This document shows positions 991-52,249 of a stretch of 52,249 nucleotides of DNA, piece by piece; position 1 is the stretch's first letter; the number at the start of each line of letters is the position of its first letter. Source of the stretch: a virus (lineage: Duplodnaviria; Caudoviricetes); IMG/VR virus record IMGVR_UViG_3300045282_000164, positions 1-52,249 of that record; one strand, 5' to 3'. Under the pieces are notes generated by a model, which was not told where the DNA came from, ran no database searches, and worked only from the letters and a program-made list of their open reading frames with translations. Both the position numbers and the translations under genes were made by a program.

Positions 991-1077
991 ATAGCCTGAA
1001 TATACCTTAACCACGAATTAAGCAATGACCATACCCCGGCCCGGCCAGGCTGAGGTATTGGCCGAACCTAAAAAGAT

Positions 1078-1123
1078 AAGGGCTGTCCTGTGATCACAGC
1101 ATGGGATGGCCCTTTTTCTTTTT
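1078..1123. terminator. Probably bidirectional intrinsic terminator
   Basis: Stem AAGGGCTGTCCTGTG/CATGGGATGGCCCTT with an A-tract before and a T-tract after. Confidence 0.7.
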
Positions 1124-1140
1124 GGGGCCACTGAGAAAAA

Positions 1141-3624
1141 ATGAAACTATTTCACACAACTTCTAACTCTTCGCCGCCGCCGATTATTAGCCTGTTCCTT
1201 CGGCGTTGCCCATCGGCAATTTGCCGGCTCATAGTCGCCATTATTATTGATCCTATCAAGCTGCAATCCCGCAGGACGATTCCCCATATCAGCAAAGAAG
1301 TTTTCGAATCTTTGCCAACGGTCACACACTTTAATGCCTCGTCCTTTGTATCTGTCGGCCGCATGATTGCGCGGGTTCTCGCAGCGATTGCGCATACCAG
1401 CCCATATTCTAAATTCGACGGAATTACTCATGCCGTGGCGAAAATTAAGTTTTTGAATCTTCTCTACTTTTACACATCCACAGCTTTTAATAGCATTCCA
1501 ATAGGTAAGATTGTTGGCGGCTACAGAAGTCAGCTTCCCACAATCACACCTACAAAACCACATGACGCGCCTCTGTGGACCTTGTCGTTCTGGACTCATT
1601 CCAATAACCACAAGCCGCCCAGAACGTTTGCCAGTCAAATCTTGCAACTTCATTTATTGTCCTTATTCCTTCTCTTGTTTTTACCATGTGTTAATGCTTT
1701 TGGTCAAACCGATACCGGGTTTTTTGTGAGGGCGGATTGCGGAACTTTAACTCCAACCAACAATCAAACCTTGTGTTTGCAATCGACTACGGTGAGCGGG
1801 AGAACTGCAGGTGTTGTTTATGTTTATACATCCGGTGCTTGGACTTCCACCTCGTCAATAGGTTCTGGGGACGTAACTGATGTGCTCGGCACCTCTTCAG
1901 AAATTACAAGCACTAATAGCGGCGGACCAGCTCCGACTCTTTCAATTGCAGATACCTTCCGAATCACAGGTCATGCTGTGACTGCTCCGGTCAAAACTGG
2001 TACGTCTCTTCCTGCTACATGCACAACAGGAGACTTGTTTTTCAAAAGTGACGCGACGGCAGGAAGTAACTTTTATGGATGCACGGGTACAAACACTTGG
2101 ACACTAGAAGGCGGGACTACCGCAGCGGCATCTAGTGTCACGTTTACACCTAATGGGACAATTTCTTCAGTTAACGTTCAATCCGCTGTGCAAGAAGTTA
2201 GGGATGAGGCGCAACCACTTGATGCTGACTTAACCGCCATTGCCGCCCTAGCGACCACTGGGTGCACGGCTAGAACAGCAGCAAATACCTGGGCCAACCG
2301 CACGCTTACCGGCACCACTGGCAACATCACAGTAACTAACGGTGATTGTGTGGCGGGTAATCCTACCTTTGACCTTGGCGCCACGGCAGTCCAGACTGAT
2401 CAATCGAATACCTGGACAACTGGCGATCAGAGCATGGCTGCCGCAGCATCTTGGACAATGCCGGTAGCTACGGGCGCAGCTCCTACGGCAAACGGCAGGT
2501 GTGCTTATGATTCAACCGCGAACCTAATTAAGTGCGGGTTTAACGGCACTACCCTCACGCTTTCCACAACCAGCGTGACACAACCGCTCAGCGCAATTTT
2601 AACATCAATGGCAGGTCTATCCGGTGGACCGCCAGTTAATGCTCAAATTCCCTATTTTACTGGCGCGACCACAGTGAGCTTGGCGCAGTTTGGCCTTTGC
2701 GTGGACAGCGGCGGCCAGCACGTAAACATCACTTCAGTTTCTCCGCTTACCTTTAGCTGTGGCACTTCAAGCACAGGCGGGATTAGCGGAGGGACAATCA
2801 ATAAATATTCGAAGTATTTAAGCGCCACGACTCTGGGGCCAGGGATCTCCACAGACGATGGGACCAATGTCACCATCGGCGGCGGCTTGATCGTCGGTGC
2901 CACTCCTTGGCTGATCGTGGACACTTCAGCCATTGCAGCCAGTGATAAAACCTGGACAGTCCTAAACTTCAGTGGAACGGTTCGGCCTTCGACGGGCGTA
3001 TTTACCCCTGGCAACATTGTAACAACCAATGCCAACGGGTTGTTGATTGATGGTGGCGCGGCTGGCGCAGGAACGTGGACCGATGCAAGTGCAAATACGG
3101 GAACAAATAAAATTCTAGTCGATTCACTTGCCGGTGGAACGAACACACTGACCCTTGGCATTAGCGCTTCCTTTGACGGTGGTTCACTCACGGCAGACGG
3201 CACTAACTGCCAAGACCCCGTTAAGGTCACGATAAACTCTGGGCCAGCTCAATATGCCATTTTGTGTGCAACGCCAAACAGCGCCCAATTCGATGCAGTT
3301 CTTATTGATCTTAAGCATGCGCTAGCAACGATTAAGGTGCGGCTCAAGGCAAACGATACTGTATCCACGCAAACCCTTGCGGGAACATTTAAAGCTCAAT
3401 GTAGAGCAACCGGGACAGCACCGAGCTCGACGTGGGGCAGCACCCAAACGGTGAGCATCACATTGACTACATTAAACACTACCTATGAGGGGTTGACGGC
3501 AGCCATCACTCCCAACGGCACATGCTCCGCTAATTCGGATCTTTACATCAGATATAACGCTACGGGGGGATCTAATTCAGCGACGACAAGAATTTTGGGG
3601 CTAGGGATAGAGCAGCAATCATGA
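1141..3624 (+). CDS. Tail-fibre-like protein with a signal peptide interrupted by an antisense HNH gene
   Basis: Fibre motifs QPLDADLTAIAAL, TISSVNVQSAVQEV and GTSLPATCTTGDLFFKSDA; Thr/Gly/Ser-rich; h-region LLSLFLLLFLPCVNAFG begins at 1654. Confidence 0.75.
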   Translation: MKLFHTTSNSSPPPIISLFLRRCPSAICRLIVAIIIDPIKLQSRRTIPHISKEVFESLPTVTHFNASSFVSVGRMIARVLAAIAHTSPYSKFDGITHAVAKIKFLNLLYFYTSTAFNSIPIGKIVGGYRSQLPTITPTKPHDAPLWTLSFWTHSNNHKPPRTFASQILQLHLLSLFLLLFLPCVNAFGQTDTGFFVRADCGTLTPTNNQTLCLQSTTVSGRTAGVVYVYTSGAWTSTSSIGSGDVTDVLGTSSEITSTNSGGPAPTLSIADTFRITGHAVTAPVKTGTSLPATCTTGDLFFKSDATAGSNFYGCTGTNTWTLEGGTTAAASSVTFTPNGTISSVNVQSAVQEVRDEAQPLDADLTAIAALATTGCTARTAANTWANRTLTGTTGNITVTNGDCVAGNPTFDLGATAVQTDQSNTWTTGDQSMAAAASWTMPVATGAAPTANGRCAYDSTANLIKCGFNGTTLTLSTTSVTQPLSAILTSMAGLSGGPPVNAQIPYFTGATTVSLAQFGLCVDSGGQHVNITSVSPLTFSCGTSSTGGISGGTINKYSKYLSATTLGPGISTDDGTNVTIGGGLIVGATPWLIVDTSAIAASDKTWTVLNFSGTVRPSTGVFTPGNIVTTNANGLLIDGGAAGAGTWTDASANTGTNKILVDSLAGGTNTLTLGISASFDGGSLTADGTNCQDPVKVTINSGPAQYAILCATPNSAQFDAVLIDLKHALATIKVRLKANDTVSTQTLAGTFKAQCRATGTAPSSTWGSTQTVSITLTTLNTTYEGLTAAITPNGTCSANSDLYIRYNATGGSNSATTRILGLGIEQQS
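1147..1653 (-). CDS. HNH homing endonuclease
   Basis: DLTGKRSGRLVV..WFCRCDCG..SCGC..IWAGMRNRC..YKGRGIKVCDRW..LDRINNNGDYEPANCRWAT; SD-like AAGGA upstream. Confidence 0.93.
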   Translation of the reverse strand: MKLQDLTGKRSGRLVVIGMSPERQGPQRRVMWFCRCDCGKLTSVAANNLTYWNAIKSCGCVKVEKIQKLNFRHGMSNSVEFRIWAGMRNRCENPRNHAADRYKGRGIKVCDRWQRFENFFADMGNRPAGLQLDRINNNGDYEPANCRWATPKEQANNRRRRRVRSCVK

Positions 3625-4241
3625 AGATCTTACCAGTTCTTTTCATCCTTCTATTCCCTTCGCTGGCATCGGCAGCTTGCCACGTTTACTTTATGCCGGC
3701 GGTTAGCACTTCTGATTTTGTTCAACCTAAGTACAGTTTCTCCACATCAGGCTCGTTTATACCATTCGGTGGACAAGGAATTTATTTAGCTGCCGCTGAT
3801 ATAGGCAGTACTGAGGACGCAGCTTTAACAGCCAATGCCGATGTTACCGCCGTTCCCGATAACCTAGATCAGCAGATAGGCGCGGGAGCTCTCGCTAAGA
3901 TTCAAACCGCACTAGAGAATCGCAACATTCCTGCTGGCTGGTTGACGGCGGCAACGACATACAGATCAGCATTGAGAACCATTGTTAATATGTTCAAATT
4001 CTTTCAGAAGTTTATCGCCGTGACCCATATCACCGTGCCGGTCATTACCGGGGCGATCACTCTAAACAGCACATTCAATTCACTCAGCGCAGCCAATCGC
4101 CAGCGGCTCATCGATACGGCTACGGCGTTAAGCTTTGACACTTCCGGGCTCACGGGCGCGGCAACCATGCGCCAGATTCTCAAGGCCATAGCCGATCAAT
4201 ATGGCTCTCCACCAGTAGTCTTGGGGTGTGTGACGATATGA
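3621..4241 (+). CDS. Exported protein, possible fibre accessory
   Basis: Signal peptide MKILPVLFILLFPSLASA; 2 Cys near the two ends of the mature chain; ATGA coupling to the upstream gene. Confidence 0.75.
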   Translation: MKILPVLFILLFPSLASAACHVYFMPAVSTSDFVQPKYSFSTSGSFIPFGGQGIYLAAADIGSTEDAALTANADVTAVPDNLDQQIGAGALAKIQTALENRNIPAGWLTAATTYRSALRTIVNMFKFFQKFIAVTHITVPVITGAITLNSTFNSLSAANRQRLIDTATALSFDTSGLTGAATMRQILKAIADQYGSPPVVLGCVTI

Positions 4242-4918
4242 AAAGGCTTTTTCTCTCTCTAATTTTTGTCCTGTGCTTGGCTACCAACTCATGGGCGGTT
4301 ACAGCATCGGACACTTTAGCATCCTATGGCGATGGCAACTTGAGCGTACTCAATGCCAACTGGCCGATCCTAAATATCGACGAGGGTTCTTTGTTTATTG
4401 CGTCGGGATCGGCAGATGTGGATGTTTTCTTTGGTAGTAACTATCGAGGTGATATTTCGCCCGGTGCTAGCCAGTTCTCTCAGGTGCAAATAACACAGCT
4501 TAACGTAGTTAACGAGGCATGGGTTAAACTATTCGTCAGAGCGCAGGCGGCTGATTCGATCACCGATACTTATATCTGTGTCGCTGTACGTAACGCTCAA
4601 GGTTCTCCCTACAGCATAGGGACGACATCTGTAATCTCAGTTGTTTCAGGTACTATCGAATCGCTGATTGCCTCGGAGTCATCAACGAGTTGGTCGGCAG
4701 GCGACACCCCGAAGTGTGCCATGACCGGGACAACCATCACCATGTACCGCAATGACGTTGCATTGCTCAGCACCACGAATGGCAGCTACGCCACCGGTAA
4801 TGTTGGGTTTGGATTATTTTCAGATCGTTACTCTGGCGGAGATACGTTCCTCAATAACTGGCTTGGGGGTGATATCTCGGTTGTTGGGACCGCTAGGCAT
4901 AGGCCGGTGATTCAATGA
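4238..4918 (+). CDS. Exported beta-sandwich (lectin/ConA-like) protein
   Basis: Signal peptide MKRLFLSLIFVLCLATNSWA; GTTITMYRND..YATGNVGFG strand pattern. Confidence 0.7.
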   Translation: MKRLFLSLIFVLCLATNSWAVTASDTLASYGDGNLSVLNANWPILNIDEGSLFIASGSADVDVFFGSNYRGDISPGASQFSQVQITQLNVVNEAWVKLFVRAQAADSITDTYICVAVRNAQGSPYSIGTTSVISVVSGTIESLIASESSTSWSAGDTPKCAMTGTTITMYRNDVALLSTTNGSYATGNVGFGLFSDRYSGGDTFLNNWLGGDISVVGTARHRPVIQ

Positions 4919-11959: not shown

Positions 11960-12172
11960 ATGAGCATCGATAAAACAAAGACCTGTCTTTTACCTCACTG
12001 CAAGAAGCACCCGTTTTGCCGTGGGCTTTGCCGGGATCATTACCAATACGCCATGCTGCGAGCCCGGCAAGGCAAGATCGATCTGAAGGAACTTGAACGA
12101 CTTGGTAAGATTCTCCCGAAAAAGACATCAGGTATGGCGACCAGCAAATATTTCGCTGACGCCGCCGTATGA
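11960..12172 (+). CDS. Small Zn-binding protein
   Basis: C-x4-C..RGLCRDHY; AAGGAG SD. Confidence 0.7.
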   Translation: MSIDKTKTCLLPHCKKHPFCRGLCRDHYQYAMLRARQGKIDLKELERLGKILPKKTSGMATSKYFADAAV

Positions 12173-12534
12173 GGGACATGAACAAAAAGAAGGCTCACGA
12201 CGCTCGCCGTCACCGTGAGCGCATGGCAAAGGATCTCAAGTATCGTATGCGTAAAATCTTCAACACCATAAATCACCGCTGCAATACGACCCAGCACAAA
12301 TCGTCGAAATACTATAACGGCAAGGGCATTCAGAACTTCCTGACGGTGAAGGCTCTCTGCGCGTTGTGGCAAATGTATGACGCTGGGAAAATGGTGAGGC
12401 CTTCGATAGATCGTTACAACTCCGATGGACATTATGAGATTGCTAACTGTCGATTTGTTGAACTGTCGGAGAATGTATCGCGTGCAGCTCGTAAATACTG
12501 GCGTGCGCAAGAACTGATGAGGGTGGGGCAATGA
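12169..12534 (+). CDS. HNH-family endonuclease
   Basis: YYNGKGI..RPSIDRYNSDGHYEIANCRFVELSEN. Confidence 0.8.
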   Translation: MRDMNKKKAHDARRHRERMAKDLKYRMRKIFNTINHRCNTTQHKSSKYYNGKGIQNFLTVKALCALWQMYDAGKMVRPSIDRYNSDGHYEIANCRFVELSENVSRAARKYWRAQELMRVGQ

Positions 12535-12699
12535 CAATAGGTACACTTATCTGGCTTTTGATTTCCTACGTTCCAATACCAACAGGTGGGCAAACCATTA
12601 AGGTAGAAGCTCACATAACTAAGCAGGGTTGCCAAGCAGCTGTGAAAAAATTGGATAAAATTGAAGCTTGGTGCGTTGAAGCAACCTTGAAGGACTGAC

Positions 12700-32233: not shown

Positions 32234-32980
32234 ATGTCGAAAGCATCTGGATATCTTTGCGGTCAAAATTGGGTAAAGCGTTATAAGCTGGGGGCGACCG
32301 CCGCTGCTACGCTTCTCCCTGGAATTCCCTTTTTAATGGTGGCGACAACTGGCGGCGTGGGGCCGGTCACGGCTACCGCTGGCGCCGATTGTGTTGGCCT
32401 TTCCCTTGGTTCGCCCTCCGGCGCTGGCTATACGACAACCCAGGCAACCGTTCTCGCTTCCGGCGAGGGCATGATTGACATTGAAATCAACCCCCATCTA
32501 GTTATTGAGTCAGTTCAATCTGGCGCGACCACTTCCGGCACTGCTATGCAGCTTGCCACCAACACGGTGGCATCGGCCGGTGGAACCGTAGTGACGGGTA
32601 CAGGCTTAGGCGCCGGTGGCGACATCGACGGTGGGATGATTTGGCGGTATCAGTACGGTGTGGCCGGCGAACTCCGAACCATCACCACGCATACATCTAC
32701 CACGGATCTCCGCGTTACCGTTCCTTTTTCCACGGCAATCGCTGTAGGCGACACCTTTCTCTATAGCACCTACAACGAAACCGGCAACGGCGCGGCCGGC
32801 GGCGACGGTAACTCAAATATCACCCTTACCAGCGATCTTTTGCAGGCGGACTCAAGCGCGGCATCGGGCGCGGGCATTGATTGCTGTGTCGTGAACTTCA
32901 TTGCGGCAGGCCAATATGACACCTTGCTCCAGTGGGTTCTTGGCGATCATATCTTCAACGATAGCGGTTCTCTCGCTTAA
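32234..32980 (+). CDS. Capsid decoration/cement-type protein, putative
   Basis: Gly/Ala/Thr-rich; directly upstream of the major capsid gene. Confidence 0.55.
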   Translation: MSKASGYLCGQNWVKRYKLGATAAATLLPGIPFLMVATTGGVGPVTATAGADCVGLSLGSPSGAGYTTTQATVLASGEGMIDIEINPHLVIESVQSGATTSGTAMQLATNTVASAGGTVVTGTGLGAGGDIDGGMIWRYQYGVAGELRTITTHTSTTDLRVTVPFSTAIAVGDTFLYSTYNETGNGAAGGDGNSNITLTSDLLQADSSAASGAGIDCCVVNFIAAGQYDTLLQWVLGDHIFNDSGSLA

Positions 32981-48803: not shown

Positions 48804-50580
48804 TTATACGGGCTTGATTGGCAAGGGGATAGGCACCGTTATTGGTGCTTGGTTCGGTGGCCCTGCTGGAGCTGCAGTCGGTGGCATGGCAGGTCAAATG
48901 GAGGGTGATAAGTTCGGCGGCGTGCTCAAGGGTGATAGCGACTGGACAAGCATGTTGTCGCCTTCTGACCCATCAGCCATGTTGGGCGGTGGCCAACAAC
49001 AACCAGCACAACCTCAAGGTCCAGCAAATCCTTTGATAGATTTGTCCCTTAATCAACCCGGCCCAAATATAAATTTTGATTCATACGGCGGGGCAACCTC
49101 AGAAGTTCCTTCACGGTTCGGCAGTCTCAACCTTGGTCTTGGCGGCCAGCCTGGCAACGCTACGGGTGATCCTATGGGAAACCTGTTTACTAATCCTAGT
49201 AATCAATTTGATGTGATGGCAGATTCACCAGCGCCACCGGCAAACTACTCACCTAACTTTACACCGACTGCGGCACCTTCGGTTGCTGATGCTGCGGCTC
49301 CAAGTGGTGGTGGATTTAATTGGGGCGGCTTAGGCCAGGCACTTCAAGGTGTAGGCAATGTGCTCGGGGCTACTGGAGCGGGGCTGAATGGTGATCCTTA
49401 CTACAATATGAGGCTACAACAGCAAGTGCAGGACGCGGCACACCAGAAACAGGTAATGAGTCTTGAACAACAAAAGTTGCAACTAGAGAAAGCCAATGGT
49501 TTTAGAAGCATGTTGGATCTTGCGGCAACAGTGAATAGTTCAAATATTAGCGATGAAGATAAAAAAGCATTTGCTCCTCAATTTACCAAATTAATGAATG
49601 ATACTACCGGAATAAATGTAAGCCCAGAATTTGGTATAAGCCTGCTCACAGGAAAAGGTAAGGCCGAAAGATTGGCGGCTGCTTACCCAGATCTCGCCAA
49701 TGCTTTTGCCAGTCCTTCAGATGCCGCAGCGTTCATTGACAAGATCAATAAAAATCCTGGGCAAGAAGAACAAATATTAAACGGTAAATTCTATGAGTTG
49801 GCCATTAATAAAGTGCAGTCTGGCCAGGATGTTCCTGATACCGTGGCTGCACATCTCAACGAGAAACAAAAAGCCAACCTTGGCGACTCAGTTTTTAATA
49901 AACTCATGGGTAACGCTAATCGGCTCACACCCGAGGAGAGATCCCAGGTTACATCTAAAGGATTGTTGACCACCCCCAATGGCAAGTTCCTAACCGACGA
50001 GCATTTCACCCGGTTAAAAGAAGCAGGTTTCCCCAATGTTGAGGCAGCATCGGTTCTCAAATCCAAGGCAATAGCCGAGCCAGCTAGGGCACAATCAGAA
50101 CAGCACTTTCAACAATCTCAGGCGGCAACACGGGCCAATGAGGCGGCGAACAGAGCACAGTCTGAAAGCCACTTCCAGCAATCCAAGGCACAGTCTGAAT
50201 CTCACTTCCAGCAGAACAAAGCTCAACAGGAAGCTAACGCTGCGCCCATAACCGAGACAGTCACGCCGGTTAGCAAGAGCCAGATGGAAGGCGCGGCTAG
50301 CGTTCTCAATAGTGTGATGGATACACCGGATTTCAAGAAGGCTAGCGATACTGTTAAACAGCAAAAACTAGAAGGAGCATTGAAAGCTCAAGGGTTAAAG
50401 TTCGCGCCTGGGACAGATATGAAAGCTATCTCCAAAAAATGGCTAGGTGGAATTGATCCTTCTAGCTTGCCGGTTGTCAAAATTCCCGCGGTTGGCAAGG
50501 GCCGGGGAATGCCAACTGGTGGTACGCCGGGACAACCGTCGATCAATGATTTGATCAATCAGTACACTCAAGGGAAATAA
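48790..50580 (+). CDS. Internal virion (ejection) protein
   Basis: Gly-zipper GTVIGAWFGGPAGAAVGG; Q/A-rich. Confidence 0.7.
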   Translation: MAFADYTGLIGKGIGTVIGAWFGGPAGAAVGGMAGQMEGDKFGGVLKGDSDWTSMLSPSDPSAMLGGGQQQPAQPQGPANPLIDLSLNQPGPNINFDSYGGATSEVPSRFGSLNLGLGGQPGNATGDPMGNLFTNPSNQFDVMADSPAPPANYSPNFTPTAAPSVADAAAPSGGGFNWGGLGQALQGVGNVLGATGAGLNGDPYYNMRLQQQVQDAAHQKQVMSLEQQKLQLEKANGFRSMLDLAATVNSSNISDEDKKAFAPQFTKLMNDTTGINVSPEFGISLLTGKGKAERLAAAYPDLANAFASPSDAAAFIDKINKNPGQEEQILNGKFYELAINKVQSGQDVPDTVAAHLNEKQKANLGDSVFNKLMGNANRLTPEERSQVTSKGLLTTPNGKFLTDEHFTRLKEAGFPNVEAASVLKSKAIAEPARAQSEQHFQQSQAATRANEAANRAQSESHFQQSKAQSESHFQQNKAQQEANAAPITETVTPVSKSQMEGAASVLNSVMDTPDFKKASDTVKQQKLEGALKAQGLKFAPGTDMKAISKKWLGGIDPSSLPVVKIPAVGKGRGMPTGGTPGQPSINDLINQYTQGK

Positions 50581-52249
50581 TGCCCGCTGATATCCTCCAA
50601 GCCATAGTGAACCATCCTGACTACCAGCAGACGACGCCAGAGGTTCGTCAAAAGGTATTGCAACAGGCATTCAATGACCCCGATGTAAAGGCGCTTAACA
50701 CCGATCAAAAATTGGCATTGGTAAAGCAGATCACTTACCCCGGCGGTTATCCAACTGAGCAGGAAGGTGAACCGCAGTTTGAAGGCAACATTGGAGCGGG
50801 TGAAATAATCCCGCAGATGAAGCTCCAGATTGGCGGCGGCATCGATACCCTACAGAAGGCATCTCAGATGCCGCAGGGGATGGATAGGGTTAAGCAAGAT
50901 ATTTCTGGCGGTGCCCAAATCCTGAGTGGCGTGGGAACGGCATCGGATGCGGCCGGGATGGCGGTAGGGGTACGCGCCAAGGCTCTATCTGACACGCTCG
51001 GGTTGCCACCAATGGCAGGGAATATCATCGGCTCACTTGCTTATGCCACAACTCCCTTTGCTTTGATGGGGATTGGGCAAAAGATTGCCGGTGCTATTAC
51101 CTCTAAGTTTGGTTCAAAGGTAAGTCAGGCCGATCTTGAAGCAGCCCGAAGCGGATTGATGACAGTACAAAAAACAGCAGCCCAAACTCAGGAAGCACTT
51201 GACCTAGCCAAGGCAGGTGAGGCGGCATCTACCGTGCAGGCTTCAGTTCAAAGTGGCCTTAGCCAAGCATCGGCAGCCTCTCAATCCGCTGCCGAGAAAG
51301 CCTTAGTTGCTGGACAGACAGAAAGAACTGTTGGCCAAACCGTCACCGATGCCCTAGTTAAAACCAGGCAAACATTACCCCCTGCCGTTCCAAGGAGCCA
51401 AATTGGCACCCAGATAAAGAGCGACATCGAGGCCAAGATTAACGACTTGCTCGTGGAAGCTCGGGGCCAATACGATCCTATCATGCAGGAAGCGGCCAAG
51501 ATTCCAGTCGGTGGGGTAAGCAGGAAACAAATTGGGACTATTCAACCGGGAGTTAGCGAGCAGGTAAATGCTGCTCAGATGGCACGCGAGGCGGCAACCT
51601 GGCGCGATGTGAGCGCCGAGACGGTGCAACAGGTTAGCGATCTATCCAAGACTGAAGGGATTTCAGTCAGCGAAGCATTCAAACAAGTGTTGGCCAACCA
51701 ATCTAAAACCACCGTGGCCGATCTCATTCTGCAAAAGCAAAGGGCCAATGTTCTTGTTAGACGTGCCCTAAATACTGGCCAGGATAATGCGGCTCGTATT
51801 GCTAAAATCGAACTCAACAATGTCAACCAGCAGATTCAGGCTGCTTCGCCTGATATCGCCGCCAAGTTAAAGATGGCTGACAAGTTTTACGCTGAGCAGT
51901 ACGCGCCTGTGGCTTCTTATGGTGCCTTCCCTAGAACAGTCCGCGACATGCCGGTTGAGGATATGGCTAACGAGATTGTCAGGCTCGGCAGCCGCAAGGG
52001 TTCTCTTGAGGCCCTCGACAGCATGGAGCCTGTGTTTGCCAGTGCAGAAGGACAAGTTACCAGGGCACAACTTGCCGGGAACGTCTTTCAAAAGTTGGTG
52101 GAACGCTCAGGCAAGGGCCAAGTATTCTATCCCGTCAAAGCTGTGGCTGTGTTCAAGCAGATGGACCCCGAGTTAAGAACGCGTTTGTTTGGTTCAAGTG
52201 CAGCAGAAATCACACAGGGCTTAGAGACAATGGCGATCGCTACGGGCAA
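50580..52249 (+). CDS. N-terminal part of a large internal virion protein, continuing to 894 via the terminal repeat
   Basis: TAATG coupling; manually translated open frame MPADILQAIVNHPDY.. to the window end; missing from the ORF track. Confidence 0.8.
   Translation, partial: MPADILQAIVNHPDYQQTTPEVRQKVLQQAFNDPDVKALNTDQKLALVKQITYPGGYPTEQEGEPQFEGNIGAGEIIPQMKLQIGGGIDTLQKASQMPQGMDRVKQDISGGAQILSGVGTASDAAGMAVGVRAKALSDTLGLPPMAGNIIGSLAYATTPFALMGIGQKIAGAITSKFGSKVSQADLEAARSGLMTVQKTAAQTQEALDLAKAGEAASTVQASVQSGLSQASAASQSAAEKALVAGQTERTVGQTVTDALVKTRQTLPPAVPRSQIGTQIKSDIEAKINDLLVEARGQYDPIMQEAAKIPVGGVSRKQIGTIQPGVSEQVNAAQMAREAATWRDVSAETVQQVSDLSKTEGISVSEAFKQVLANQSKTTVADLILQKQRANVLVRRALNTGQDNAARIAKIELNNVNQQIQAASPDIAAKLKMADKFYAEQYAPVASYGAFPRTVRDMPVEDMANEIVRLGSRKGSLEALDSMEPVFASAEGQVTRAQLAGNVFQKLVERSGKGQVFYPVKAVAVFKQMDPELRTRLFGSSAAEITQGLETMAIATG
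52050..52249. repeat. 200-bp direct terminal repeat, right copy; indicates a circular or complete assembly
   Basis: Copy of 1-200; the reading frame continues across the junction. Confidence 0.97.

What the first reader, a model, noticed from the sequence alone, without database searches (positions are those of the whole stretch)
1141..1704. HNH gene nested antisense, exactly stop-to-start, inside a signal peptide
Seen: the + frame reads ATG AAA, then CTA (complement of the HNH stop), then the antisense HNH body, then CAT (complement of the HNH start), then TTA TTG TCC TTA TTC CTT CTC. Removing the 507-nt HNH gene gives MKLLSLFLLLFLPCVNAFG-Q, matching the MK-hydrophobic starts of the next three genes. 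The insert is a multiple of 3 and is stop-free on the + strand, so the HNH uses no TTA, CTA or TCA codons among its roughly 15 Leu/Ser residues. The HNH ribosome-binding site (AAGGAATAAGGA) is the reverse complement of the h-region codons. No intron sequence flanks the ORF. Inference: the homing gene hides in a region that signal peptidase later discards, so a 169-aa antisense-encoded extension would be cleaved off and cost little. This would be a third way, besides introns and inteins, to invade a gene neutrally. Internal initiation (TTG 1642), ribosome bypassing or RNA excision are alternatives.
Basis: partly seen in the sequence, partly recalled or inferred. Interest (0 to 1): 0.87.

Follow-up and report, generated by a model that had tools for sequence, protein, structure and literature searches.

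The report
Backwards HNH gene inside fibre leader
A selfish DNA-cutting (HNH-type) gene sits backwards, codon for codon, just after the start codon of a soil phage's fibre gene, and its opposite strand is kept free of stop codons, so the fibre can probably still be made without an intron or an intein.

Summary
The + ORF 1141..3624 (827 aa) reads ATG AAA, then the exact complement of a 168-codon HNH-family gene (1147..1653, minus strand), then a signal-like hydrophobic leader and a fibre protein.

It is not a one-off. Three more fibre alleles carry the same nest (L103/P0018, L094, P0228). An empty site exists in a near-identical relative (L093: MKKLLSFF...).

The complement of the endonuclease gene is stop-free in all four. 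Chance gives about 0.3-3% for the window and about 10% for same-strand relatives. The original ATG keeps a normal ribosome-binding site, while internal starts have none.

In viral contigs, family members lying backwards in an operon often carry a stop-free host-strand ORF. In 5 of 9 it ends on the next gene's start codon.

Best reading: a homing-endonuclease gene whose mirror strand is selected to let host ribosomes cross it, here fused to the fibre precursor. Removal of the 169-residue extension by signal peptidase is plausible but untested.

This scan has already noted stop-free bridges over backward HNH genes in other genomes. In print the nearest case is the same-strand "hidden HNH" ShiLan insertion (PMC11855218). 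This is a new variant, not a new category.

The parts
1015..1151 (+). Intergenic module plus the first 11 bases of the fibre ORF. It is identical in short contigs of two other metagenomes, which diverge on both sides. Its right edge (1151|1152) marks the left junction of the insert.
   Evidence: X2 record 4 matches 1015-1151 with 0 other letters and 1 gap; X3 record 11 matches 1061-1151 with 0 other letters; both stop matching at 1151.
1078..1124 (+). Terminator-like hairpin (15 pairs) with a T run, 17 bases before the fibre ATG. It lies 3' of the HNH stop on the other strand.
   Evidence: consensus scan only; 2 terminator-like sites found against 1.4 expected in shuffles.
1133..1146 (+). Native ribosome-binding stretch (GAGA) and start of the fibre gene, ATG AAA.
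   Evidence: anti-SD pairing is -4.7 kcal/mol, against a median of -5.5 for 34 ATG genes and -2.5 for random positions. The same start stands in an insert-free context in X2.
1141..3624 (+). Fused open frame of 827 codons: MK + mirror image of the HNH gene + leader + fibre.
1147..1653 (-). HNH-family endonuclease gene of 168 codons plus TAG. It has no TTA, CTA or TCA codon.
   Evidence: (phrog_374, E 4.9e-61).
1660..1664 (-). AAGGA ribosome-binding site of the HNH gene, 6 bases before its ATG. It is the complement of the leader codons TCC TT(A).
   Evidence: -5.9 kcal/mol.
1654..1698 (+). Signal-like leader LLSLFLLLFLPCVNA, the h- and c-regions of the fibre precursor.
   Evidence: It aligns with the leader of the insert-free homologue P0003 (MKKLFTLLFLLIASAAYG|QDTGFF). 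It was judged by eye; no signal-peptide predictor was available.
1699..3621 (+). Mature fibre protein. Its homologues are phage fibre-like proteins of soil metagenomes.
   Evidence: phrog_697, structural protein; 172 homologues at E<=0.001; best 60% identity.

Best explanation
A free-standing homing-endonuclease gene of an HNH-annotated phage family (phrog_374) has inserted backwards and codon-aligned between codon 3/4 and the hydrophobic leader of a phage fibre gene. The fibre keeps its original ribosome-binding site and ATG.

Ribosomes start there, read the complement of the endonuclease gene as a 169-residue meaningless extension, and run on into the leader and the fibre. Selection therefore purges from the endonuclease gene the three codons (TTA, CTA, TCA) that would be stops on the host strand.

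This is the fused form of a more general design. In that design, a backward endonuclease gene carries a stop-free host-strand 'bridge' that hands ribosomes to the next host gene.

Shown: the insertion, its empty site, its recurrence, the stop-free mirror frame beyond chance, and the placing of ribosome-binding sites.

Inferred: that the fused frame is translated. Weaker still (about 0.4): that the extension is then cut off together with the leader by signal peptidase.
For: (1) Insertion with an empty site.
- L093 reads ATG AAA AAA CTA TTG TCT TTT TTT (MKKLLSFF...).
- L103 and L094 have the same flanks: 97-98.6% identity upstream and 91.6-94% downstream.
- Between CTA and TCT they hold a backward HNH gene of 179 or 249 codons.
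- dS between the L103 and L093 fibres is only 0.025.

(2) Recurrence. Four fibre alleles have MK(K)L + mirror-HNH + leader in one open frame:
- the window;
- L103 (= P0018/P0019);
- L094;
- P0228, 842 aa, whose mirror part is residues 37-191.

(3) The two HNH alleles in L103 and L094 are only 68-74% identical in DNA and differ in length. Their flanks are 94-99% identical, and both mirror frames are open.

(4) Chance is low.
- 0.33% of like windows in this genome are open.
- P(open) by family codon usage is 0.032 (window), 0.071 (L103) and 0.015 (L094).
- Relatives lying on the same strand as both neighbours are open in 3 of 31.

(5) Start signals.
- ATG 1141 pairs with the anti-SD at -4.7 kcal/mol. 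In-frame TTG 1642, 1657 and 1675 give +0.4, +2.2 and +1.5.
- In L103/L094 the ATG gives -5.0, against -0.9 and -3.5 for internal GTGs.

(6) General pattern. I examined 116 distinct family genes in viral contigs.
- The 9 that lie backwards to both flanks are open in 4 and have one stop in 2. Same-strand genes are open in 3 of 31 (Fisher one-sided p 0.034).
- In 5 of the 9 (L027, L034, L057, L073, L121) the host-strand ORF ends overlapping, or 1 base from, the ATG of the next host gene.

(7) The nested fibre genes are not decaying. dN/dS is 0.45-0.52 in nested-nested and nested-empty pairs, with no frame breaks.

(8) The leader and its small-residue cleavage-like site are retained after the insert in all nested alleles.
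Against: - There is no expression evidence of any kind, and the host is unknown.
- A 171-residue extension ahead of a signal peptide may hinder export. I could run no signal-peptide predictor.
- P0228, L087 and L090 have a good in-frame ATG just before the leader. Internal starts are therefore feasible in some alleles, and the mirror frame might serve only to carry ribosomes or to protect the mRNA.
- A terminator-like hairpin ends 17 bases before ATG 1141. A promoter-like site (1469-1496, +) lies inside the insert, although such sites are no more frequent there than in shuffles.
- Three of the 9 backward relatives have 5-6 stops in the mirror frame, so a bridge is not obligatory.
- The other HNH-like gene of this genome (12169-12534) lies on the same strand as its neighbours, yet also lacks the three codons. 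A family or chance effect therefore exists.
- The HNH tree is unresolved. The nested alleles cannot be counted as independent events, and L103 and L094 share a site.
Confidence: 0.6

Rival explanations
1. The fibre is made from an internal start just after the insert: TTG 1642 or 1657 here, GTG after CAT in L103/L094, ATG in P0228. The upstream open frame is only a translated leader that carries ribosomes across the insert and shields the mRNA from polarity, or it is not used at all.
For: - P0228 has MIYPRSTR + leader. L087 has MKFMFRH.. and L090 has MKLSTCKIYKRWH.. just before their leaders.
- A gene caller chose the internal start in P0017.
- In L090 the bridge ends in a stop, and an ATG follows 7 bases later.
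- A promoter-like site lies at 1469-1496 on the + strand.
Against: - In the window, L103 and L094 the internal candidates are non-ATG and lack any anti-SD pairing (+0.4 to +2.2 kcal/mol; -0.9 and -3.5). The upstream ATGs have normal pairing.
- Ribosomes reading a fused frame do not terminate, so they cannot re-initiate there.
- If the upstream frame were unused, nothing would keep it open in four alleles.
Confidence: 0.22
2. The open mirror frame is a chance or compositional 'shadow ORF' of an endonuclease gene that landed on the fibre's start. The nested fibre gene is dead or dispensable.
For: - Codon-aligned mirror frames are the most often open. Of 80 family genes, 7 are open.
- The same-strand HNH-like gene at 12169-12534 is also open.
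- 1189 database 'proteins' match the mirror translation, most of them 100-300 aa and so probably shadow ORF calls.
- The phage has other fibre-like genes.
Against: - Four nested alleles are all open and all in frame with an intact leader and fibre.
- The joint chance by family usage for the three with DNA in hand is about 3e-5 if they are independent.
- dN/dS is 0.45-0.52, with no breaks in the nested fibres.
- Three of the 7 open genes turned out to be coupled bridges themselves.
Confidence: 0.08
3. The insert is removed before or during translation: by a self-splicing intron, ribosomal bypassing, an invertible or excisable DNA segment, or protein splicing.
For: These are the known ways for homing-endonuclease genes to sit inside genes. 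The TATT repeat at both junctions could in principle support precise deletion.
Against: - The HNH ORF fills the insert to the base, leaving no room for ribozyme structure.
- Rfam gives only a sub-threshold sRNA hit (E 0.31) on 800-1800.
- 507 bases is ten times the known bypass gap (recalled).
- There are no flanking inverted repeats beyond the 7 bases shared by two ATG-AA starts.
- The + translation has no Pfam family.
- No joint was seen in the contigs laid. Contigs cannot show rare forms, so this point is weak.
Confidence: 0.04

Closest known systems
ShiLan-type 'hidden HNH' insertions in actinophage DNA methylase genes (Arsenault, Gosselin, Gogarten 2025, PMC11855218; abstract, section 3.6 and searched passages read)
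   Same: An HNH gene lies inside a host ORF with no intron or intein. The host frame stays stop-free across the insert. Distribution among close relatives is patchy, pointing to homing.
   Different: There the HNH is on the same strand in another frame, and it sits inside the mature enzyme as a presumed loop. Here it is on the opposite strand, codon-aligned, with its own ribosome-binding site. It sits before the leader, where the extra residues could be discarded.
Free-standing homing endonuclease genes of T4-type phages: seg and mob genes, including antisense segD and gene-splitting insertions such as Aeh1 nrdA (review PMC2988022; passages read)
   Same: An endonuclease gene without an intron or intein, lying between or in phage genes. 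There is presence/absence polymorphism, and the element must not disturb host gene expression.
   Different: Those sit in intergenic spaces or split the host gene into two polypeptides. In the passages I read, no host reading frame is described as running through the complement of the endonuclease gene.
Stop-free bridging frames over backward HNH genes or cassettes in phage late operons
   Same: TTA, CTA and TCA are purged from a backward HNH gene, and the host-strand ORF is coupled to its neighbours. I reproduced this here on 5 viral contigs.
   Different: Here the bridge starts at the invaded gene's own ATG. It does not end in a stop-start overlap but is fused to the invaded protein, ahead of a signal-like leader.
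Inteins, including those whose homing nuclease is a separate antisense ORF
   Same: The mobile insert is read in frame with the host gene, and the extra residues are later removed at the protein level.
   Different: There are no splicing blocks here. Removal, if any, would be by the host's signal peptidase acting on the host protein's own leader, not by self-splicing.
T4 gene 60 bypass element linked to the mobA endonuclease (bioRxiv 10.1101/2022.08.31.505936; listing and start of the abstract seen) and 'fractured genes' with split inteins (PMC2677866; listing and start of the abstract seen)
   Same: These are other translation-level or protein-level ways of tolerating an endonuclease-linked insert in a coding region.
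   Different: They skip 50 bases or trans-splice two halves. Here the whole insert would be translated.

Membership tests
Free-standing homing endonuclease gene | Intact ORF of an endonuclease family | tested here: met
   168-codon ORF. phrog_374 'HNH endonuclease' at E 4.9e-61. 314 relatives in viral contigs. Confident model, pLDDT 91.
Free-standing homing endonuclease gene | Present or absent at one precise site between otherwise near-identical genomes | tested here: met
   L093 (empty) against L103 and L094 (occupied), with flanks 91.6-98.6% identical. For the window itself this is only partly met: the upstream module up to base 1151 recurs in X2 and X3 in front of a different, insert-free ORF.
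Free-standing homing endonuclease gene | Not carried by an intron or intein | tested here: met
   The ORF fills the insert. There is no Rfam intron on 800-1800 and no Pfam family in the + translation.
Free-standing homing endonuclease gene | The enzyme cuts the empty allele near the insertion site | not testable with these tools
   This needs a cleavage assay on the L093-type site.
HNH (beta-beta-alpha-metal) nuclease superfamily | Match to a curated HNH profile | tested here: inconclusive
   PHROG families named HNH match strongly. Pfam gives nothing even at E<=10, nor does NCBIfam or PDB sequence search.
HNH (beta-beta-alpha-metal) nuclease superfamily | His-Asn-His/Asn motif with the first catalytic His | tested here: inconclusive
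   In 25 aligned members N145 and N157 are invariant. The residue before them, which by recall I equate with the first His, is an invariant Arg (R134, 'DR'). An invariant His lies elsewhere (H73).
HNH (beta-beta-alpha-metal) nuclease superfamily | Beta-beta-alpha fold | tested here: inconclusive
   The model has strands 131-134 and 146-149 followed by helix 151-158. The best of 48,161 chains is the HNH restriction enzyme PacI (Z 6.1, rmsd 2.4, 75 residues), which is below the tool's trust level of about 8. Foldseek finds nothing at E<=0.001.
ShiLan-type hidden HNH insertion | Host reading frame stop-free across the insert | tested here: met
ShiLan-type hidden HNH insertion | HNH encoded on the same strand in another frame | tested here: not met
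   The HNH is on the opposite strand and codon-aligned. I therefore file this as a variant, not a member.
Sec-type cleavable signal peptide (of the invaded gene) | Basic n-region, hydrophobic core, small residues at -3/-1 | tested here: inconclusive
   Seen by eye in 23 of the 27 fetched homologues and in the next three genes. No predictor was run, and whether the leader works 171 residues inside a chain is unknown.
Stop-free bridge over a backward endonuclease gene (this scan's earlier notes) | Codon-aligned mirror frame free of stops beyond chance | tested here: met
Stop-free bridge over a backward endonuclease gene (this scan's earlier notes) | The bridge ends in a stop that overlaps the next gene's start | tested here: not met
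   Here, and in L103, L094, P0228 and L087, the frame is fused to the downstream protein. It is met in L027, L034, L057, L073 and L121.

The most novel reading that the evidence does not exclude
A lineage of homing-endonuclease genes has evolved a two-strand design. One strand encodes the nuclease. Its mirror strand is kept readable, so the element can live inside the coding start of exported phage receptor-binding proteins. The host makes a precursor with a junk N-terminal extension, and the cell's own signal peptidase trims it off with the leader. This would be a protein-level, splicing-free route to neutral invasion of a gene. The fused form may be tolerated only in front of cleavable leaders, while elsewhere the same elements end their bridge on the next gene's start codon.
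Probability: 0.35. Interest if true: 0.88.

Novelty: new variant of a known kind. Interest (0 to 1): 0.7.

Why it matters
Homing endonuclease genes are thought to survive inside genes only by hiding in introns or inteins, or by staying between genes. Here the hiding place is the coding start of a gene. The disguise is a mirror reading frame purged of stops, and the host's own export machinery may remove the junk.

If confirmed, this would show that selection on a selfish gene can act on its non-coding strand. It would explain many long 'hypothetical' N-terminal extensions and shadow ORFs in phage annotations. It would also warn gene callers that the long ORF and the nested backward gene can both be real.

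It gives a directly testable system. One synonymous change in the HNH gene makes a stop in the fibre frame.

Tried and rejected
Searches and tools that gave nothing:
I therefore could not fetch the DNA of P0018/P0019, P0017 or P0228 by identity.
- Close-relative scans of viral contigs found nothing with the fibre, with P0228, or with a 39-base pattern of the upstream module.
- The fibre alignment found nothing in genome contigs, so I have no host clue.
- A word-based search with residues 1-171 found only the window's own protein.
- Rfam on 800-1800 gave only STnc70, below threshold (19 bits against 40; E 0.31).
- PDB by sequence gave nothing. Foldseek PDB gave nothing at E<=0.001.

Reads:
- No RNA holder was listed.
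- Laid contigs of X1 (the probable source) show one contig across the region and no joint. Contigs drop rare forms, so this says nothing about excision.

Tree:
- The careful search for the HNH tree did not finish. The quick tree is star-like. L103, L094 and L087 group at aLRT 91, and the window's gene is unplaced. I make no claim on independent origins.

Ideas rejected:
- Invertible switch: the ends share only AAATGAA in inverted order, because both genes start ATG AA. L103 and L094 lack even that.
- My first reading, that none of the 7 open relatives is nested, was too quick. Three of them (L034, L057, L073) proved to be coupled bridges. So 7 of 80 overstates pure chance. The same-strand figure is 3 of 31.
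- The second HNH-like gene (12169-12534) with the open mirror ORF 12040-12546 lies in a + strand run of small genes. I take its mirror ORF as a shadow compatible with chance among 51 genes.

Literature:
- No paper in the listings describes a host frame reading through the complement of a free-standing endonuclease gene, or an endonuclease gene in a signal-peptide region.
- The library lacks most subscription journals, and supplements were closed.
Full report
What is there.

The window is a complete 52,249-base virus record of a tailed phage, with portal and major head protein hits. The + ORF 1141..3624 (827 aa) and the - ORF 1147..1653 (168 aa) are both open and codon-aligned.

The + frame reads ATG AAA, then CTA (the complement of the TAG stop). 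It then reads the mirror image of the whole minus-strand gene, then CAT (the complement of its ATG). After that come LLSLFLLLFLPCVNA|FGQTDTGFF... and a fibre-like protein.

The minus-strand gene matches PHROG phrog_374 'HNH endonuclease' at E 4.9e-61. It has 314 relatives in viral contigs. Its 8 Leu and 7 Ser codons include no TTA, CTA or TCA. The other two + frames over it hold 4 and 11 stops.

Its ribosome-binding site, AAGGA six bases before the ATG, is the complement of the leader codons.

Is the label HNH safe?

Only partly.
- Pfam gives nothing even at E<=10. NCBIfam and PDB sequence searches give nothing.
- In an alignment of 25 members, the Asn positions of the motif are invariant. The place I equate, by recall, with the first His is an invariant Arg.
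- A confident model (pLDDT 91) ends in a beta-beta-alpha unit.
- Its best structural neighbour among 48,161 chains is the HNH restriction enzyme PacI, but at Z 6.1, below the tool's trust level. Foldseek finds nothing.

I use 'HNH-family' as the annotation of the PHROG, not as a shown catalytic mechanism.

It is an insertion, and the empty site exists.

Of the 27 fibre homologues I fetched, out of 172 hits:
- 23 start M/L-[K/R/Q]-x followed by a hydrophobic leader and a small-residue site before Q. The closest is P0003: MKKLFTLLFLLIASAAYG|QDTGFFIRADCGTL, 60% identical.
- Two start inside the protein (P0009, P0021).
- One starts at the leader (P0017).
- One, P0018, has a 183-residue extension after MKK. 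That extension is homologous to the window's extension (39% over 89 residues, E 1e-11).

The metagenome scan brought the DNA.
- In L103 (= P0018) the frame is ATG AAA AAA CTA | mirror of a 179-codon HNH gene | CAT GTG GTC TCT TTT TTT.
- L094 has the same junctions with a 249-codon HNH gene.
- L093 has the same flanks (97% upstream, 91.6% downstream) and reads ATG AAA AAA CTA TTG TCT TTT TTT, that is MKKLLSFFVFL....

So the insert lies between the host's Leu-4 codon CTA and the leader. The HNH stop codon is the complement of that host codon.

For the window itself, short contigs of two other metagenomes are 100% identical to 1015-1151 and 1061-1151 and differ beyond on both sides. In X2 the ORF goes on in frame as MKLF-KFLIPLLLL, an insert-free leader of another gene. 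TATT stands at both 1148-1151 and 1655-1658. 'Exactly stop to start' is therefore true of the ORF, but the junction is ambiguous by about five bases.

A fourth nested allele, P0228 (842 aa), turned up when I searched 1.8 billion representatives with the mirror peptide. It reads MKKL, then a mirror-HNH stretch at 37-191, then MIYPRSTRIIFIHALILILVILNSNTHA|ADLGYLSSIDCGTLSP.

Is the open mirror frame more than chance?

- In this genome only 19 of 5713 (0.33%) 169-codon windows of + genes are open in the codon-aligned mirror frame.
- Only 1 of 51 genes lacks the three codons. That gene is the other HNH-like gene at 12169.
- From host codon usage P(open) is 0.015. From the family's own usage at like G+C it is 0.032 for the window, 0.071 for L103 and 0.015 for L094.
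- Of 80 family genes in viral contigs, 7 are open. Three of those later proved to be coupled bridges.
- L103 and L094 matter most. Their flanks are 94-98.6% identical, but their HNH genes are only 68-74% identical in the alignable parts and differ by 70 codons. Both mirror frames are open. The site has seen allele replacement, yet the property persists.
- The nested fibre genes show dN/dS 0.45-0.52 and no breaks, like the nested-empty pairs.

Where does translation start?

- Pairing with the anti-SD (a recalled motif) is -4.7 kcal/mol for ATG 1141. The median is -5.5 for 34 ATG genes of this genome and -2.5 for random positions.
- The in-frame TTGs at 1642, 1657 and 1675 give +0.4, +2.2 and +1.5.
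- L103 and L094 give -5.0 for the upstream ATG and -0.9 and -3.5 for internal GTGs.
- The upstream module with this ATG is native, since it stands before an insert-free ORF in X2.

Against this:
- A terminator-like hairpin lies 17 bases upstream, and a promoter-like site lies inside the insert. Such sites are no commoner there than in shuffles.
- P0228, L087 and L090 offer good ATGs just before their leaders.

The wider pattern.

The same family sits backwards at the next gene boundary in relatives.
- In L087 it lies between the fibre stop and the next leader-bearing gene. A + ORF (3472..4743) runs open through it and in frame into that gene.
- In L090 a 144-codon + ORF covers most of it, ends in a stop, and an ATG follows 7 bases later.

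I then classed 116 distinct family genes from two viral-contig scans by the strand of their flanks.
- Of the 9 that are backward to both flanks, 4 are open, 2 have one stop, and 3 have 5-6 stops.
- Same-strand genes are open in 3 of 31 (one-sided Fisher p 0.034).
- With half-classified flanks the counts are 8 of 25 against 4 of 63 (p 0.004).
- In 5 of the 9 (L027, L034, L057, L073, L121) the host-strand ORF over the HNH gene ends overlapping, or one base from, the ATG of the next host gene. In L073 and L121 it also begins within 10 bases of the previous stop.

So translation of the host strand across a backward endonuclease gene is a recurrent, apparently selected design. The window shows its fused form. 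In my small sample the fused form occurs only in front of signal-like leaders: the window, L103, L094, P0228 and L087. The five stop-start bridges precede genes whose starts mostly do not look like leaders. It is a correlation in ten cases, judged by eye.

How it most likely works.

Shown:
- a mobile endonuclease gene at a defined site in the first codons of the fibre gene;
- an empty site;
- allele turnover;
- a mirror frame kept open beyond chance;
- the native start signals retained.

Inferred (0.6): ribosomes start at ATG 1141 and translate through into the fibre precursor.

Inferred more weakly (about 0.4): the internal leader still engages export and signal peptidase removes residues 1 to about 186.

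Rivals:
- an internal start, with the mirror frame as a mere ribosome carrier (0.22);
- a chance shadow ORF on a dead gene (0.08);
- removal by splicing, bypass or excision (0.04).

What is known.

The concept of an HNH gene read through by its host ORF without intron or intein is in print for the same-strand, out-of-frame ShiLan and Pacc40 insertions in actinophage methylases (PMC11855218). It mentions neither the opposite strand nor signal peptides: all four opposite-strand phrases I searched and 'signal peptide' gave 0 occurrences.

The T4 review (PMC2988022, passages) describes antisense segD and gene-splitting insertions, but no mirror reading frame in what I read.

This scan has repeatedly noted stop-free bridges over backward HNH genes in other genomes, and one unchecked note of an HNH in a signal-peptide region elsewhere. 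My reproduce the bridge pattern independently on this family.

I therefore rate this as a new variant of a known kind. It is well supported as an observation. Its attraction is a clean empty site, four alleles, and a simple decisive experiment.

Noticed in passing
window 1015-1151: A 137-base intergenic module (hairpin, ribosome site, ATG AAA CTA TT) is 100% identical in short contigs of a freshwater metagenome and of another soil metagenome. Both flanks there are unrelated. It may be a recombination or homing boundary, or a co-converted flank.
   Followed up: partly
window 12169-12534 (+) and 12040-12546 (-): A second, shorter HNH-like gene (33% identical to residues 74-161 of the first) also has no TTA, CTA or TCA codon, and a 168-codon mirror ORF covers it. 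It lies on the same strand as its small-gene neighbours, so the mirror ORF looks like a shadow.
   Followed up: partly
window 1654, 3621, 4238, 4915: Four consecutive fibre-module genes of a tailed phage begin with signal-like leaders (MK + hydrophobic + small residues), as do nearly all homologues. Export of tail-fibre-like proteins would be unusual and is unexplained.
   Followed up: no
L094 941-1690 (-): This HNH allele is 249 codons long. After the nuclease core it repeats the N-terminal Cys-rich (CxCxCG...SCGC) module. Its mirror frame is still open over 750 bases.
   Followed up: no
L090 3313-3801 and L087 3511-3963: In relatives the same family sits backwards between the fibre stop and the next leader-bearing gene. 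In both, the complement of the HNH's conserved K-F-H codons supplies an ATG AAA start for the host strand.
   Followed up: partly
L027, L034, L057, L073, L121 (viral contigs): Backward HNH genes here have a host-strand ORF that ends overlapping, or one base from, the next host gene's ATG. These are stop-free 'bridges' as noted before by this scan in other genomes.
   Followed up: yes
protein library: 1189 cluster representatives match the mirror translation of this HNH gene at E<=0.001. Nearly all of the top 150 are 100-300 aa long. They are probably wrong-strand gene calls over HNH genes in public annotations.
   Followed up: no
window 50580-52247 and 1-894: The record starts and ends inside one large gene. 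A 52,020-base contig of run X1 holds window base 1 at its position 32,707. The genome is therefore circular or circularly permuted.
   Followed up: no
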